Below are positions 3,674-15,557 of a stretch of 15,557 nt of DNA, piece after piece. The position numbers were made by a program, and so were the translations under genes. The notes under the pieces were generated by a model that saw nothing but the letters and a program-made list of their open reading frames with translations, searched no databases and had not been told where the DNA came from. The stretch is from a virus, in UHGV virus genome UHGV-0274902. One strand, given 5' to 3'. How positions within the stretch are numbered: the stretch's first letter is position 1; each line of letters begins with the position of its first letter.

Positions 3674-3863
3674 ACTGCAGGCGCTGCGTCAGGCGCGCCT
3701 TGATTTATTAACCGGTAAACGGGTGGTGTCTGTCCAGAAAGATGGTCGCAGAATTGAATATACGGCGGCCTCTCTGGATGAGCTTAACCGGGCGATCAAT
3801 GATGCTGAGTTGGTACTGGGGACAACCCGCCGTCGCCGTCGTCCGCTGGGAGTGAGGTTATGA
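3657..3863 (+). CDS. W: Head-tail joining / head completion protein, lambda gpW homolog
   Basis: 68 aa; LTGKRVVSVQKDGRRIEYTAASLDEL matches lambda gpW. GGAGG Shine-Dalgarno; overlaps the end of A and the start of B. Confidence 0.9.
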   Translation: MVTVAELQALRQARLDLLTGKRVVSVQKDGRRIEYTAASLDELNRAINDAELVLGTTRRRRRPLGVRL

Positions 3864-5574
3864 AACGAAAGCCTGTCCTGATTGATGTGAACGGCGTTCC
3901 GCTTCGGGAGAGTCTCAGCTACAACGGGGGCGGTGCAGGATTTGGCGGGCAAATGGCAGAGTGGTTGCCACCCTCGCAGAGTGCCGATGCGGCCCTGCTG
4001 CCCGCGTTGCGTCTGGGGAATGCCCGTGCAGATGATCTGGTGCGCAATAACGGAATAGCGGCCAATGCGGTGGCCCTGCATAAGGATCACATTGTCGGGC
4101 ATATGTTTCTGATTAGCTACCGTCCGAACTGGCGCTGGCTGGGGATGCGGGAGACCGCGGCAAAAAGTTTTGTCGATGAGGTGGAGGCGGCCTGGTCAGA
4201 ATACGCAGAAGGGATGTTTGGTGAGATCGACGTGGAAGGGAAACGCACGTTTACGGAATTTATCCGTGAAGGTGTGGGCGTTCATGCGTTTAACGGCGAA
4301 ATCTTTGTGCAGCCGGTCTGGGATACGGAGAGCACGCAACTGTTTCGTACGCGTTTTAAAGCCGTGAGTCCGAAACGGGTGGACACGCCAGGACACGGTA
4401 TCGGGAACCGTTTTCTGCGGGCCGGGGTGGAGGTTGATCGATATGGCCGTGCCGTTGCGTACCATATCTGTGAGGATGATTTTCCTCGCTCCGGGAGTGG
4501 ACGATGGGAACGGATCCCGCGTGAACTTCCCACCGGGCGTCCGGCCATGCTGCATATTTTCGAGCCGGTGGAGGACGGGCAGACCCGTGGGGCCAACCAG
4601 TTTTACAGCGTCATGGAACGGCTGAAGATGCTCGATTCCCTGCAGGCAACACAGCTTCAGTCGGCCATTGTTAAAGCCATGTATGCAGCGACGATTGAAA
4701 GTGAACTTGATACCGAAAAGGCCTTTGAATATATCGCCGGCGCGCCACAGGAGCAGAAGGATAATCCGCTTATTAATATTCTGGAGAAGTTTTCCAGCTG
4801 GTATGACACGAATAACGTGACACTGGGCGGTGTCAAAATTCCGCACCTTTTCCCTGGTGATGATCTGAAACTACAGACTGCGCAGGATTCAGACAATGGA
4901 TTTTCTGCGCTTGAACAGGCGCTGCTGCGGTATATCGCCGCCGGTCTTGGCGTTTCCTACGAACAGTTGTCCCGTGATTACTCGAAGGTCAGTTATTCAA
5001 GTGCCCGCGCCTCCGCCAATGAGTCGTGGCGCTATTTTATGGGGCGGCGAAAATTTATTGCGGCCCGGCTGGCCACGCAGATGTTTTCCTGCTGGCTGGA
5101 AGAGGCACTTCTTCGGGGGATTATTCGTCCGCCACGGGCACGTTTTGATTTTTATCATCAGCACCAGCTCTTTCTCATACGTGCTCAGTCCGGCCTCAAT
5201 GCGCATCACTGATTCCTGGACTTCCTTGAGCCCGTCAATGGCCATTCTTCCGGCACCAATCCACTCTGCCCGTGACCAGGCTGATCGCGCCTGATAAAAA
5301 TCAAAACGTGCCCGTGGCGGACGAATAATCCCCCGAAGAAGTGCCTCTTCCAGCCAGCAGGAAAACATCTGTTGAGGCCGGACTGAGCACGTATGAGAAA
5401 GAGCTGGCGCTGATGGGCGAGGATTATCAGGACATTTTCCGCCAGCAGGTCAGGGAATCTGCTGAGCGGCAAAAAGCCGGACTCTCACGTCCGGTGTGGA
5501 TAGCGCAGGCGTATCAGCAGCAGATAGCGGAGAGTCGCAGGCCGGAAGAGGAGACAACACCACGTGAGACGTAA
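3860..5574 (+). pseudogene. B: Portal protein gene, lambda gpB homolog, disrupted by an internal inverted duplication. Collinear N-terminal part 3860-5155 (reading frame stops at 5212); C-terminal part resumes at 5374-5574
   Basis: 3860-5155 encodes a gpB-like sequence ending ...MFSCWLEEALLRGIIRPPRARFDFY, then runs into reverse-complemented sequence and stops. The next portal segment (QARSAWSRAEWIGAGRMAIDGLKEVQESVMRIE) is encoded on the minus strand at 5293-5195. The gpB-like C-terminus EAGLSTYEKELALMGEDYQDIFRQQVRE... is back on the + strand from 5374. Confidence 0.8.
5078..5415. repeat. Nested inverted-repeat complex inside B. IR1: 5078-5155 = reverse complement of 5294-5371 (78 bp, perfect). 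IR2: 5156-5199 = reverse complement of 5372-5415 (44 bp, one mismatch at 5163/5408). Unique core 5200-5293
   Basis: Base-by-base reverse-complement comparison. Net structure is A + rc(A-m-B') + B', where A-m-B' is the inferred collinear portal segment. Confidence 0.9.
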
Positions 5575-7069
5575 TCTTTCACACATTATTGCAGCAGCAT
5601 TCAATGAACCGCTGCTTCTGGAGCCCGCCTATGCGCGGGTTTTCTTTTGCGCGCTCGGGCGCGAGATGGGGGCAGCAAGTCTTTCGGTACCACAACAGCA
5701 GGTACAGCTTGATGCACCCGGAATGCTGGCTGAAACGGACGAGTACATGGCCGGAGGTAAACGACCGGCCCGTGTTTACCGGGTGGTGAACGGTATTGCT
5801 GTACTGCCGGTGACAGGCACGCTGGTGCACCGGCTGGGGGGTATGCGGCCATTTTCCGGAATGACAGGCTATGACGGCATTGTCGCCTGTCTTCAGCAGG
5901 CAATGGCGGATAGCCAGGTGCGGGGCGTACTGCTGGACATTGACAGTCCGGGCGGGCAGGCCGCCGGTGCGTTTGACTGTGCTGACATGATTTACCGCCT
6001 CCGTCAGCAGAAGCCGGTCTGGGCACTGTGCAATGACACGGCCTGTTCTGCAGCCATGCTGCTGGCGTCGGCCTGCTCCCGACGGCTGGTTACCCAGACA
6101 TCCCGTATCGGCTCCATTGGCGTGATGATGAGCCATGTCAGCTATGCCGGTCATCTGGCGCAGGCCGGTGTGGATATCACGCTGATTTACTCAGGGGCGC
6201 ACAAGGTGGATGGCAATCAGTTTGAAGCGTTGCCGGAAGAGGTTCGCCAGGACATGCAGCAGCGGATTGATGCGGCGCGCCGGATGTTTGCCGAAAAAGT
6301 GGCGATGTATACCGGTCTGTCTGTTGATGCAGTCACGGGAACAGAGGCCGCCGTTTTTGAAGGTCAGTCCGGCATTGAGGCCGGGCTGGCGGATGAATTA
6401 ATCAATGCGTCGGATGCCATCAGCGTGATGGCTGCGGCGCTGAACACACATGATACAGGAGGCACTATGCCGCAATTAACTGCAACGGAAGCTGCCGCGC
6501 AGGAGAACCAGCGAGTGATGGGGATCCTGACGTGTCAGGAAGCGAAAGGACGTGAACACCTTGCCACGATGCTGGCAGGACAACAGGGCATGAGCGTTGA
6601 ACAGGCCCGGGCGATTCTGACCGCGGCAGCACCACAGCAGCCGGTGGCATCCACGCAGAGTGAAGCCGATCGCATTATGGCGTGTGAAGAGGCTAAAGGT
6701 CGTGAACAACTGGCGGCAACGCTGGCGGCGATGCCGGAGATGACGGTGGAAAAAGCCCGCCCGATCCTGGCGGCTTCACCGCAGGCGGATGCCGGACCCT
6801 CACTCCGTGATCAGATTATGGCTCTGGATGAGGCAAAAGGGGCTGAGGCGCAGGCTGAAAAACTGGCGGCGTTTCCCGGAATGACGGTGGAGGCTGCCCG
6901 CGACATTCTCTCCTCATCGCCGGATAAAGCAGAACCGGTTTCTGCATCCACAACCGCCATGTTTGAACGCATCATGGCGAACCATTCACCGGCAGCCGTG
7001 CAGGGTGGCGTGTCACAGACGTCGGCAGACGGTGATGCGGACGTGAAAATGCTCATGGCCATGCCATGA
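5564..7069 (+). CDS. C: Prohead protease / minor capsid protein (S49 ClpP-like family), lambda gpC homolog, with an extended repeat-containing C-terminus
   Basis: GTG start with GAGGAG upstream. AAFNEPLLLEPAYARVFFCAL...GMTGYDGIV...LLDIDSPGGQAAGAFDCADMIY...KPVWALCNDTACSAA...RRLVTQTSRIGSIGVMMSH...ITLIYSGAHKVDGN matches lambda gpC. Confidence 0.9.
   Translation: MRRNLSHIIAAAFNEPLLLEPAYARVFFCALGREMGAASLSVPQQQVQLDAPGMLAETDEYMAGGKRPARVYRVVNGIAVLPVTGTLVHRLGGMRPFSGMTGYDGIVACLQQAMADSQVRGVLLDIDSPGGQAAGAFDCADMIYRLRQQKPVWALCNDTACSAAMLLASACSRRLVTQTSRIGSIGVMMSHVSYAGHLAQAGVDITLIYSGAHKVDGNQFEALPEEVRQDMQQRIDAARRMFAEKVAMYTGLSVDAVTGTEAAVFEGQSGIEAGLADELINASDAISVMAAALNTHDTGGTMPQLTATEAAAQENQRVMGILTCQEAKGREHLATMLAGQQGMSVEQARAILTAAAPQQPVASTQSEADRIMACEEAKGREQLAATLAAMPEMTVEKARPILAASPQADAGPSLRDQIMALDEAKGAEAQAEKLAAFPGMTVEAARDILSSSPDKAEPVSASTTAMFERIMANHSPAAVQGGVSQTSADGDADVKMLMAMP
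6467..7069 (+). CDS. nu3: Scaffolding protein, lambda Nu3 analogue, translated in frame from an internal start within C
   Basis: Internal ATG 6467 preceded by AGGAGG (6457-6462), same frame as C. This mirrors the lambda nu3 start, which as I recall lies at a GGAGG-containing SGGRM inside C (here TGGTM). Product carries the tandem IMxxxEAKGxE...GMTVExAR modules. Confidence 0.65.
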   Translation: MPQLTATEAAAQENQRVMGILTCQEAKGREHLATMLAGQQGMSVEQARAILTAAAPQQPVASTQSEADRIMACEEAKGREQLAATLAAMPEMTVEKARPILAASPQADAGPSLRDQIMALDEAKGAEAQAEKLAAFPGMTVEAARDILSSSPDKAEPVSASTTAMFERIMANHSPAAVQGGVSQTSADGDADVKMLMAMP

Positions 7070-7105
7070 AGTCAGTGCTGACCATCAATATGAGGTTTTA
7101 ACAAA

Positions 7106-7453
7106 ATGGTGACGAAAACCATCACTGAACAACGTGCGGAAGTACGTATTTTTGCCGGTAATGATCCGGCTCATACCGCCACAGGCAGCAGCGGGATTTC
7201 TCAGGCAACACCGGCACTGACGCCCCTGATGCTGGATGAAGCCAGCGGGAAACTGGTGGTCTGGGACGGACAGAAAGCCGGTAGTGCGGCTGGCATACTG
7301 GTACTGCCGCTTGAAGGCACAGAGACGGTGCTGACGTATTACAAGTCGGGGACCTTTGCGACGGAGGCAATCCGCTGGCCTGAAAGAGTGGATGAACACA
7401 AAAAGGCCAACGCCTTTGTCGGCACAGCCCTGAGTCACGCGGCGCTGCCGTAA
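7106..7453 (+). CDS. D: Head decoration protein, lambda gpD homolog
   Basis: DPAHTATG...TPLMLDEASGKLVVWDG...GILVLPLEG...TYYKSGTF matches lambda gpD. Confidence 0.92.
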   Translation: MVTKTITEQRAEVRIFAGNDPAHTATGSSGISQATPALTPLMLDEASGKLVVWDGQKAGSAAGILVLPLEGTETVLTYYKSGTFATEAIRWPERVDEHKKANAFVGTALSHAALP

Positions 7454-7510: not shown

Positions 7511-8539
7511 ATGGGATTGTTTACGACCCGCCAGTTACTCGGTTATACCGAACAAAAAGTTAAATTCCGTGCGCTGTTTCTGGAGCTGTTTTTCCGCCGT
7601 ACGGTGAATTTCCACACCGAAGAGGTGATGCTGGACAAAATTACCGGAAAAACGCCGGTGGCAGCCTATGTCTCCCCGGTTGTTGAAGGAAAAGTGCTTC
7701 GCCATCGCGGTGGTGAAACCCGCGTGTTACGTCCGGGCTACGTCAAGCCCAAACACGAATTTAATTACCAGCAGGCGGTTGAGCGCCTTCCTGGTGAAGA
7801 TCCGGCTCAGCTGAATGACCCGGCCTACCGTCGTCTGCGTATCATTACCGATAACCTCAAACAGGAAGAGCACGCCATTGTCCAGGTGGAAGAAATGCAG
7901 GCGGTGAATGCCGTGCTGTATGGCAAATACACCATGGAAGGGGATCAGTTTGATACTGTCGAGGTGGATTTCGGGCGCTCTGAAGGAAATAACATTGAGC
8001 AGGCTGACGGTAAAAAATGGTCTGAGCAGGACCGTGATACGTTTGATCCGACGCATGATATTGACCTCTACTGCGATCAGGCCAGCGGCCTTGTGAATAT
8101 CGCCATTATGGACGGTACGGTCTGGCGTCTGCTGAATGGCTTTAAGCTGTTCCGCGAAAAACTGGATACCCGTCGCGGCTCAAATTCACAACTCGAAACG
8201 GCAGTGAAAGACCTGGGGGCGGTGGTGTCCTTCAAGGGGTATTACGGCGATCTGGCCATTGTGGTGGCGAAAACGTCTTATGTGGCAGAGGACGGTACCG
8301 AAAAACGTTATCTGCCGGAGGGCACACTGGTCCTGGGGAATACGGCAGCAGAGGGCATTCGTTGCTATGGTGCCATTCAGGATGCGCAGGCGTTGTCCGA
8401 AGGTGTGGTGGCCTCTTCCCGTTATCCGAAACACTGGCTGACTGTGGGCGATCCGGCCCGTGAATTCACCATGACGCAGTCCGCTCCGCTGATGGTGCTG
8501 CCGGATCCGGATGAGTTTGTGGTGGTACAGGTGAAATAA
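7511..8539 (+). CDS. E: Major capsid protein, lambda gpE homolog
   Basis: 342 aa; PGYVKPKHE, DPAYRRLRII, VEEMQAV, KLDTRRGSNS.LETAVKDLG, TVGDPAREFTMTQSAPLM match lambda gpE along the full length. Confidence 0.95.
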   Translation: MGLFTTRQLLGYTEQKVKFRALFLELFFRRTVNFHTEEVMLDKITGKTPVAAYVSPVVEGKVLRHRGGETRVLRPGYVKPKHEFNYQQAVERLPGEDPAQLNDPAYRRLRIITDNLKQEEHAIVQVEEMQAVNAVLYGKYTMEGDQFDTVEVDFGRSEGNNIEQADGKKWSEQDRDTFDPTHDIDLYCDQASGLVNIAIMDGTVWRLLNGFKLFREKLDTRRGSNSQLETAVKDLGAVVSFKGYYGDLAIVVAKTSYVAEDGTEKRYLPEGTLVLGNTAAEGIRCYGAIQDAQALSEGVVASSRYPKHWLTVGDPAREFTMTQSAPLMVLPDPDEFVVVQVK

Positions 8540-14786: not shown

Positions 14787-15472
14787 TGCAGGATATTCAC
14801 GAAGAAAGTCTGAACGAGTCGGTTAAATCAGAGCAGTCACCGCGGGTGGTGCTCTGGGAAATCGACCTGACGGTACAGGGCGGTGAGCGGTATTTTTTCT
14901 GCAATGAGCTGAATGAAAAAGGGGAGCCGGTCACCTGGCAGGGGCGGCAATATCAGGCGTACCCGATTGAGGGCAGCGGCTTTGAGATGAACGGAAAGGG
15001 CAGCAGTGCCAGACCGTTGCTGACGGTGTCCAATCTGTTTGGTCTTGTCACCGGAATGGCGGAGGATTTGCAGAGCCTGGTGGGGGCCACGGTGGTCCGC
15101 CGCCGGGTGTATGCCCGTTTTCTGGATGCGGTGAATTTCGTTGCGGGCAATCCGGAAGCGGACCCGGAGCAGGAGCTGAGTGACCGCTGGGTGGTGGAGC
15201 AGATGTCGCAGCTGACAGCCATGACGGCCTCGTTTGTGCTGGCCACACCGACCGAGACGGACGGGGCGCTGTTTCCCGGTCGTATCATGCTGGCGAACAC
15301 CTGTATGTGGACCTACCGCTCTGATGAGTGTGGTTACACGGGCGGGGCTGTGGCGGATGAGTTCGATAAACCCACCACGGATATCCGTAAGGACAGATGC
15401 AGCAAGTGCATGCGCGGGTGTGAACTGCGCAGGAATGTCGGCAATTCCACATACAGGTGTTCGCCAGCATGA
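14786..15472 (+). CDS. L: Minor tail protein, lambda gpL homolog, with an aberrant 3' end. gpL-like sequence runs to 15445, then the frame enters an inverted copy of 15200-15311 and stops at 15472
   Basis: MQDIHEESLNE...VVLWEIDLT..GGERYFFCNE.NEKGEPVTWQGRQYQ.YPI.GSGFE.NGKG.S.RP.LTVSNL.G.VTGMAED.QSLVG.TVVRR.VYARFLDAVNFV.GN matches lambda gpL through ...RNVGN. The last ~12 residues expected from lambda are replaced by STYRCSPA, which is encoded by the fold-back copy. Confidence 0.85.
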   Translation: MQDIHEESLNESVKSEQSPRVVLWEIDLTVQGGERYFFCNELNEKGEPVTWQGRQYQAYPIEGSGFEMNGKGSSARPLLTVSNLFGLVTGMAEDLQSLVGATVVRRRVYARFLDAVNFVAGNPEADPEQELSDRWVVEQMSQLTAMTASFVLATPTETDGALFPGRIMLANTCMWTYRSDECGYTGGAVADEFDKPTTDIRKDRCSKCMRGCELRRNVGNSTYRCSPA

Positions 15473-15557
15473 TACGACCGGGAAACAGCGCCCCGTCCGT
15501 CTCGGTCGGTGTGGCCAGCACAAACGAGGCCGTCATGGCTGTCAGCTGCGACATCTG
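15200..15557. repeat. Perfect inverted repeat at least 112 bp long: 15446-15557 is the exact reverse complement of 15200-15311, spacer 15312-15445 (134 bp). Cut by the window end
   Basis: Base-by-base reverse-complement comparison. The minus strand of 15446-15554 re-encodes the gpL segment MSQLTAMTASFVLATPTETDGALFPGRIMLANTCMW. Confidence 0.9.

What the first reader, a model, noticed from the sequence alone, without database searches (positions are those of the whole stretch)
6497..7069. Threefold tandem repeat of the scaffold module in the C/nu3 overlap region
The C-terminal third of the gpC frame contains three consecutive ~46-50 aa modules (starting near 6503, 6662 and 6803) of the pattern (E/R).(Q/D)(R/Q)(V/I)M...(C/D)(Q/E)EAKG(R/A)E...LA...(G/E)M(S/T)VE.AR.IL...P, plus a partial fourth (ERIMANHSP, near 6965). 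Lambda gpC/Nu3, as I recall, carries one such module. The copies are diverged at DNA level, so this is an old duplication and not part of the perfect fold-backs. Because nu3 is read in frame from an internal start (ATG 6467 with AGGAGG), the scaffolding protein would be ~200 aa, versus ~130 aa in lambda.
Basis: partly seen in the sequence, partly recalled or inferred. Interest (0 to 1): 0.45.

Follow-up and report, generated by a model that had tools for sequence, protein, structure and literature searches.

The report
Triplicated scaffold module, phage 21 type
The tail end of this phage's head-protease/scaffolding gene really does carry three old tandem copies of a small three-helix module that phage lambda has only once, but the same triplication was already annotated ("Tri boxes") in the 1993 phage 21 sequence, so it is real, ordinary and of unknown function.

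Summary
In the gpC frame (5564-7069), three modules lie at 6503-6637, 6662-6784 and 6803-6925. Pairwise alignment scores are 12-17 sd above shuffles, and single-module PHROG profiles hit three times. The "partial fourth" (ERIMANHSP) is not a repeat. It belongs to a separate post-module tail motif that single-module homologues, including lambda, also carry.

The window is a phage 21-type head operon, 95.5% identical to M81255.1 across this gene. That 1993 record already marks "Tri1 box / Tri box / Tri3 box" (function unknown) at the same positions, with gene 6 (Nu3 analogue) starting at the same ATG (window 6467).

- Lambda gpC has one module, as do about 93% of the best-scoring S49 prohead proteases.
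- 77 of 80 close relatives keep three.
- An E. coli prophage has four, and a distant protease duplicated it independently.
- The copies are old: 52-68% nucleotide identity, third positions near saturation, dN well below dS.

AlphaFold gives each module as a confident three-helix bundle (pLDDT 90), with the three joined by flexible linkers.

The best reading, which is inferred, is a multivalent protein-binding scaffold. The finding is already known and of low interest.

The parts
5564..7069 (+). Head maturation protease gene (lambda C / phage 21 gene 5 homologue), 501 aa. The S49 peptidase domain covers residues 146-293. Ser162 aligns with lambda Ser166.
   Evidence: Pfam PF01343 E=1.6e-35; phrog_53 head maturation protease E=6.9e-226; 95.5% nt identity to phage 21 gene 5, same length, no indels.
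6467..7069 (+). Nested in-frame scaffolding-protein gene (lambda Nu3 / phage 21 gene 6 homologue), 200 aa, 20.8 kDa, pI 4.7. AGGAGG lies at 6457-6462.
   Evidence: Same start as annotated gene 6 in M81255.1 and OL657228.1; SD context; the Met is nearly invariant in homologues. Expression was not tested here.
6503..6637 (+). Module 1 (ENQRVMGILTCQEAKGREHLATMLAGQQGMSVEQARAILTAAAPQ). It is the orthologue of lambda's single module and contains the phage 21 'Tri1 box' (6534-6637).
   Evidence: HMM hit 80.5 bits; groups with lambda-type modules in the NJ tree; AF2 three-helix bundle, pLDDT 90.2; Tri1 mapping.
6662..6784 (+). Module 2 (EADRIMACEEAKGREQLAATLAAMPEMTVEKARPILAASPQ). It contains the phage 21 'Tri box' (6674-6784).
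   Evidence: HMM hit 84.8 bits; SW z=16 against module 1 and 16.7 against module 3; positional orthologue in Salmonella proteins.
6803..6925 (+). Module 3 (LRDQIMALDEAKGAEAQAEKLAAFPGMTVEAARDILSSSPD). It contains the phage 21 'Tri3 box' (6815-6928). It is the most diverged copy: the near-invariant Arg of GRE and the first Leu of helix 2 are replaced, and its net charge is -4.
   Evidence: HMM hit 82.4 bits; deviations seen against alignment A2; charge; two allelic forms among relatives.
6926..7066 (+). C-terminal tail (47 aa) with a predicted helix TTAMFERIMANHS and the terminal ...MLMAMP. It holds the family-wide post-module motif and is not a fourth repeat.
   Evidence: No similarity to the modules above shuffles; aligns with lambda ALDRLMQGAPAP...LLNTPV; similar motif after the single module of distant S49 proteases; low AF2 confidence, pLDDT 43-59.

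Best explanation
Window 6467-7069 is the scaffolding part of a phage 21-type head gene. It is read twice: as the C-terminal 200 residues of the S49 head-maturation protease (gp5, the lambda C homologue), and on its own from the internal ATG 6467 as the scaffolding protein (gp6, the lambda Nu3 homologue).

The protein is built as beads on a string:
- a 12-residue N-terminus;
- three 41-45-residue three-helix-bundle modules joined by 6-8-residue Pro/Ala/Ser/Gln linkers;
- the conserved 47-residue tail.

The first module is the counterpart of the single module of lambda and of most S49 prohead proteases. The other two arose by old in-frame tandem duplication downstream of it. Purifying selection has kept them as folded units.

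Inferred mechanism: each module is a small protein-protein interaction unit of the kind that anchors scaffold and protease inside the assembling gpE shell, or links scaffold molecules to each other. The 21-type scaffold would then be trivalent where lambda's is monovalent. After assembly the co-packaged protease degrades it.

Shown here: repeat anatomy, age, conservation, fold prediction, distribution of copy number, and identity with the annotated phage 21 Tri boxes. Inferred: the binding partner, and any consequence of valency.
For: - **Repeat significance.**
- **Identity with phage 21.** Genes 5/6 and the annotated Tri1/Tri/Tri3 boxes match.
- **Protease domain.** S49 domain with a conserved Ser.
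- **Internal start.** It has an SD and a conserved Met.
- **Copy number elsewhere.** Lambda has one module. Single copy is the norm: 132 of 142 top representatives, 1288 hits in all. All ten long hits that were scanned are S49 peptidases.
- **Stability.** 77 of 80 loci with a protease at least 96% identical keep the 501-aa, 3-module form. The other three are truncated or frameshifted.
- **Age and selection.** dN is 0.25-0.50 against dS above 1.1 or saturated, and third-position identity is 22-47%. Modules 2 and 3 have positional orthologues in Salmonella proteins.
- **Fold.** The single module has pLDDT 90.2 and three helices. In the 200-aa model the modules reach pLDDT 72-82, the linkers are below 62, and pTM is 0.27, so there is no fixed arrangement between modules.
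- **Published interactions.** Lambda Nu3 is reported to interact with E, with C and with itself (PMC3224144).
Against: - No solved structure or Pfam/NCBIfam model covers the module.
- Module 3 has lost the near-invariant Arg and a core Leu, so it may be functionally weakened or diverged.
- Capsid proteins of the 1-, 3- and 4-module lineages have the same length and are 59-84% identical. Extra copies are therefore not tied to an obvious change in the shell.
- Expression from ATG 6467 is taken from annotation and sequence signals, not measured.
Confidence: 0.6

Rival explanations
1. The modules are self-association units of the scaffold rather than capsid-binding units. Three copies would let scaffold molecules form a network or core, and the conserved C-terminal tail alone would contact the shell or portal.
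For: Lambda Nu3-Nu3 interaction is reported by two-hybrid and by personal communication in PMC3224144. The tail motif is conserved across the whole family independently of the module. It is the extreme C-terminus, the usual shell-contacting end in other scaffolds (P22, 80alpha, as reviewed in PMC11922011).
Against: The AF2 model of the 200-aa protein shows no packing between modules (pTM 0.27), although that model is a monomer. No direct data exist either way.
Confidence: 0.2
2. The extra copies act mainly as a spacer. They replace lambda's 48-residue low-complexity N-terminal segment and set the distance between the protease or N-terminus and the C-terminal tail. They have no binding role of their own.
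For: Lambda Nu3 has a long Ser/Thr/Ala/Asp-rich segment before its module, while the window protein has only 12 residues there. Module 3 lacks some near-invariant residues. Rare natural 2-copy variants exist: P0021 and P0022, and P0017 with a further internal deletion.
Against: Each copy keeps the core and the EAKG(R)E loop under purifying selection, with dN well below dS. Each folds confidently. 77 of 80 close relatives keep all three. The length compensation is incomplete: 200 against 131 aa.
Confidence: 0.12
3. The apparent repeat is a compositional or assembly artefact: Ala/Gln-rich low complexity, or a duplication created by the same process that produced the fold-backs elsewhere in the window.
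For: The window does contain perfect fold-backs at 5078-5415 and 15200-15557. The region is Ala-rich.
Against: Composition-preserving shuffles never reach the observed scores. The copies are direct, in frame and 52-68% identical, not perfect. The same three copies occur in phage 21, in about 20 sequenced phages and in 77 IMG/VR loci.
Confidence: 0.01

Closest known systems
Phage 21 genes 5 and 6 (head-tail preconnector gp5/gp6) with annotated 'Tri1 box / Tri box / Tri3 box' (GenBank M81255.1; also OL657228.1)
   Same: The gene has the same length (1506 nt, no indels), 95.4-95.5% nt identity and 24 aa differences. The internal start and the three repeat boxes are the same, and the box ends coincide with the module ends found here (6637, 6784, 6928 against 6925).
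   Different: The differences are allelic only and cluster at the end of module 3 (FPGMTVEAARDILSSSPD against CPGMTVESARAVLAAGSG). Both forms circulate among relatives. The closest phages are Escherichia phage PhiR12_x, at 99.5%.
Phage lambda gpC / gpNu3 (S49 protease with nested scaffolding protein)
   Same: The gene order is the same (B, C/Nu3, D, E). The protease part is 61% identical and the Ser is conserved. The SD-preceded internal Met sits at the equivalent place. Lambda has one homologous module (residues 357-400) and a homologous tail.
   Different: Lambda has one module preceded by a 48-residue low-complexity segment, and its Nu3 is 131 aa. Here there are three modules, a 12-residue N-terminus and 200 aa.
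P22-type scaffolding protein C-terminal helix-turn-helix coat-binding domain
   Same: Both are small helical units near the C-terminus of a scaffolding protein, with conserved basic residues. The presumed role in recruiting the scaffold to the coat protein is the same (literature summarised in PMC11922011).
Tandem three-helix-bundle binding domains (staphylococcal protein A domains, GA modules, UBA/CUE)

Membership tests
Lambda C/Nu3-type S49 prohead protease with nested scaffolding gene | S49 (SppA/ClpP-like) peptidase domain with the catalytic Ser | tested here: met
   PF01343 E=1.6e-35 over residues 146-293. Ser162 aligns with lambda Ser166 in the conserved N-D-x-x-C-S-A motif. That Ser166 is catalytic in lambda is from my own knowledge of Medina et al. 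2010.
Lambda C/Nu3-type S49 prohead protease with nested scaffolding gene | In-frame internal translation start giving a scaffolding protein identical to the protease C-terminus | tested here: inconclusive
   ATG 6467 with AGGAGG upstream is at the position equivalent to lambda Met309 (GGAGG upstream). It is annotated as gene 6 in phage 21, and the Met is nearly invariant. Actual translation cannot be tested with these tools.
Lambda C/Nu3-type S49 prohead protease with nested scaffolding gene | Position in the head operon between portal (B) and decoration/major capsid genes (D, E) | tested here: met
   Phage 21 annotation: portal, gene 5/6, shp (D-like), major capsid. Window ORFs 7106-7453 and 7511-8539 follow the gene. 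gpE is 62% identical to lambda E.
Lambda C/Nu3-type S49 prohead protease with nested scaffolding gene | C-terminal I-x(5)-EAKGRE-x-LA-x-x-LA...M-[ST]-x-x-x-A-x-x-x-L...P module followed by a conserved tail | tested here: met
   The module is present three times. The tail is homologous to lambda's. phrog_8399 (head scaffolding protein) gives E=1.3e-36.
Phage 21 'Tri box' triplication | Three repeat boxes inside gene 6 at the annotated positions | tested here: met
   M81255.1 repeat_regions 5542-5645, 5682-5792 and 5823-5936 map to window 6534-6637, 6674-6784 and 6815-6928. They translate to the module cores.
P22-type scaffolding helix-turn-helix coat-binding domain | Sequence or fold similarity to the solved P22 C-terminal HTH | tested here: not met
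P22-type scaffolding helix-turn-helix coat-binding domain | Direct binding to the major capsid protein N-arm | not testable with these tools
   This needs binding assays or prohead cryo-EM. The only pointer found is a two-hybrid Nu3-E interaction reported for lambda (PMC3224144).

The most novel reading that the evidence does not exclude
The three-helix module is the unit that grips the major capsid protein, and its copy number sets scaffold valency. Copy number is 1 in lambda and 3 in phage 21. It is 4 in the E. coli prophage contig L084, and 2 in the distant S49 protease P0108 through an independent duplication. A 21-type scaffold would then cross-link three gpE subunits, for example around a quasi-threefold. 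That would change the stoichiometry and kinetics of T=7 shell assembly without changing the shell. Lambdoid phages would be a natural copy-number series for testing how scaffold avidity controls capsid assembly.
Probability: 0.25. Interest if true: 0.5.

Novelty: already known. Interest (0 to 1): 0.22.

Why it matters
The finding matters little as a discovery. The triplication was recorded with the phage 21 head-operon sequence in 1993 and has been carried in GenBank since, labelled 'function unknown; putative'.

What this check adds is context:
- the module is a confidently predicted three-helix bundle, specific to the S49 prohead proteases examined and not covered by any Pfam or NCBIfam model;
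- one copy is the rule;
- three copies are stably kept in the 21 lineage;
- other lineages reached two or four copies independently.

How lambda-type scaffolds contact the shell is still structurally unresolved. This natural 1/2/3/4-copy series could serve as a handle for experiments on scaffold valency.

Tried and rejected
- **DNA-level repeat finders.** Tandem Repeats Finder on 6300-7200 found nothing. The short direct and inverted repeats from the repeat finder are 12-23-nt matches in a GC/Ala-codon-rich stretch and say nothing about the modules. The repeat is visible only at protein level.
- **Fourth copy.** Tested and rejected.
- **Pfam and NCBIfam.** No model covers the module. The weak hits to the 200-aa protein (E 0.13-0.9) are noise.
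- **PDB by sequence.** Only designed tandem-repeat proteins matched, sharing a 'G-x-S-x-E-Q-A-x-x-I-L' string with per-stretch i-E-values of 2.8 or worse. These are chance matches.
- **Foldseek of the whole 200-aa model against PDB.** Nothing scored below E=1, as expected for a floppy multi-domain model.
- **Literature.** The 1993 phage 21 paper and the two Catalano-lab lambda gpC/gpNu3 papers are not in the held library. Statements about them rest on the GenBank annotation and on my own knowledge.
- **First homology search.** It returned mostly fragments. These showed variants, but copy-number statistics were taken instead.
- **Recent repeat turnover in the 4-copy variant.** Considered and rejected. 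Its copies are only 71-77% identical at DNA level.
- **CII-box annotation inside the gene.** The pattern count equals chance.

Full report
**What is there**

The window is a lambdoid head-tail operon. The ORF 5564-7069 (501 aa) carries an S49 peptidase domain (PF01343, E=1.6e-35, residues 146-293). It matches the PHROG 'head maturation protease' over its full length. Its DNA is 99.5% identical to Escherichia phages PhiR12_x. It is 95.5% identical, with no indels, to gene 5 of phage 21 (M81255.1, OL657228.1).

In both phage 21 records a second CDS, gene 6 ('scaffolding protein', the Nu3 analogue), starts in frame at the position of window ATG 6467. That ATG is preceded by AGGAGG. The Met is nearly invariant in homologues.

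**Checking the observation**

Translation of the last 200 codons shows three similar stretches. An HMM built from the stretches places them at residues 13-57, 66-106 and 113-153.

- Pairwise local alignment scores are 101, 73 and 108, against 22-25 ± 4-5 for composition-preserving shuffles. That is z = 12-17, with 0 of 1000 shuffles as high.
- PHROG profiles built from single-module proteins hit the 200-aa protein in three separate stretches. This check does not depend on my own model.
- Seventeen columns are identical in all three copies.

The 'partial fourth' (ERIMANHSP at 6965) is present as a string, but the tail is no more similar to any module than shuffled sequence (score 20, z about 0). 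It aligns with lambda's tail ALDRLMQGAPAP. It also aligns with a [FL]-x-x-x-M...P motif that follows the single module in many distant S49 proteases. It is therefore a separate conserved element of the family, not a product of the triplication.

**Already annotated**

GenBank M81255.1 (phage 21 head operon) carries three repeat_region features inside gene 6. They are named 'Tri1 box', 'Tri box' and 'Tri3 box' and noted as 'function unknown; putative'. With the constant offset between the two sequences, they map to window 6534-6637, 6674-6784 and 6815-6928. They translate to the cores of the three modules. The triplication is thus a known feature of phage 21. The accompanying paper is not in the searchable library, so I rely on the record itself.

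**Comparison with lambda**

- Lambda gpC (439 aa) aligns with the window protein through the protease part at 61% identity.
- Lambda Ser166 aligns with window Ser162.
- Lambda has one module, at residues 357-400.
- Lambda's SD-preceded internal Met309 gives a 131-aa, 13.4-kDa Nu3.
- RefSeq instead annotates nu3 from an upstream ATG as 201 aa, so the length comparison depends on which start is used.
- Lambda has a 48-residue Ser/Thr/Ala/Asp-rich segment ahead of its module. The window protein has 12 residues there, and two additional modules after the first.

**How common three copies are**

A profile of 21 diverse modules was searched against 1.84 billion cluster representatives. It gave 1288 hits at E≤1e-3. 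Among the best 142 with a near-complete module, 132 have one copy, 8 have two (several are fragments) and 2 have three. P0035 also has three but was excluded from the recount. Multi-copy proteins rank first because their scores add, so single copy is clearly the norm.

All ten long hits scanned are S49 peptidases with the module near the C-terminus. The best structural matches among viral models are also S49 prohead proteases, including one from a cyanophage.

Eighty IMG/VR loci were chosen only by protease similarity (at least 96% identity). Of these, 77 encode the 501-aa three-module form and the other three are truncated or frameshifted.

Other states exist:
- **Four modules.** An E. coli prophage contig (L084) has four, with a 138-nt period at 77% identity.
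- **Two modules.** Rare 21-type variants (P0021, P0022) look like deletions between or within repeats, and P0017 has a further internal deletion.
- **Independent duplication.** A distant protease (P0108) has two modules that are each other's closest relatives.

**Age and selection**

Module cores are 52-68% identical in DNA, and third positions are 22-47% identical. dS is 1.2-1.7 or saturated, while dN is 0.25-0.50.

In a neighbour-joining tree of modules, module 1 groups with the lambda-type single modules. Modules 2 and 3 group by position with those of Salmonella proteins. That tree rests on only about 41 aligned positions and is weakly resolved.

The triplication is therefore old, and each copy has been kept as a protein. 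Module 3 is the most diverged: GAE replaces GRE, Q replaces a core L, and its net charge is -4. It occurs in two allelic forms.

**Structure**

- AlphaFold2 on the single-module alignment gives a compact three-helix unit, with helices at 2-10, 18-25 and 32-42, pLDDT 90.2 and pTM 0.65.
- The 200-aa protein is predicted as three such units (pLDDT 72-82). Low-confidence linkers and a low-confidence tail join them, and there is no fixed mutual arrangement (pTM 0.27).
- The conserved hydrophobic positions fit a bundle core. The invariant EAKG(R)E sits in the loop between helices 1 and 2.
- No solved structure is related by sequence.

**How it most likely works**

Established knowledge of lambda:
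- C and Nu3 overlap in frame (Shaw & Murialdo 1980, cited in PMC8508860).
- gpC is the protease that removes the scaffold (Medina et al. 2010, cited in the same paper).
- Nu3 interacts with E, with C and with itself (PMC3224144).

On that basis, the shared C-terminal region is what brings both scaffold and protease into the assembling shell.

I infer that each module is a protein-interaction unit and that the 21-type scaffold is a trivalent version of lambda's. The partner is not shown by anything here. It could be the capsid protein, the portal or another scaffold molecule.

Capsid proteins of the 1-, 3- and 4-module lineages have the same length and are 59-84% identical. Copy number is therefore not linked to an evident change of shell.

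Three rivals remain:
- self-association units, with the tail as the only shell contact;
- mere spacers;
- an artefact, which searches exclude.

**Verdict**

The feature is an already annotated property of phage 21-type phages. Interest is low. The residual value is as a natural copy-number series for studying scaffold valency.

Noticed in passing
window 5078-5415 (portal gene B): A perfect fold-back lies inside the portal gene. Window 5156-5371 is the reverse complement of phage 21 sequence (L001 1137-1352), flanked by forward copies of overlapping sequence. The portal ORF is therefore split (3860-5212 and 5341-5574) instead of one 531-aa gene as in phage 21. It looks like an assembly or sequencing chimera or an inversion-duplication.
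   Followed up: partly
window 15200-15318 and 15439-15557: A second inverted duplication lies at the very end of the window. The repeat finder reports 119-nt arms 97% complementary, 120 nt apart, and blastn gives 112 nt at 100%. It is probably the same kind of artefact as the one in the portal gene.
   Followed up: no
window 6472-6485 and 6706-6719, minus strand: There are two matches to TTGYN6TTGY. The phage 21 record OL657228.1 annotates these positions as CII binding sites. They are the only two in the window, but two is what shuffles predict (mean 2.7), so the annotation is pattern-based only.
   Followed up: yes
window 6875-6925 (end of module 3) and IMG/VR loci L004-L083: The end of module 3 occurs in two sharply different allelic forms among otherwise 96-100% identical genes: FPGMTVEAARDILSSSPDK against CPGMTVE(N/S)ARAVLAAGSGK. 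The tail motif also varies (FERIM against FEHFM). This suggests mosaic recombination inside the scaffold region.
   Followed up: no
L084 410-918 (E. coli GCA_032727965.1 contig): A lambdoid prophage has four modules with an exact 46-codon period (TRF period 138, 3.7 copies, 77% matches). It sits next to D-like and E-like genes, and its E protein is 84% identical to the window's.
   Followed up: partly
NC_001416.1 5132-5737 (L003 833-1438): RefSeq annotates lambda nu3 as a 201-aa product from an upstream ATG with no obvious SD. The SD-preceded Met309 (131 aa, 13.4 kDa) lies at the position equivalent to the phage 21 gene 6 start. The database annotation may overstate the length of Nu3.
   Followed up: partly
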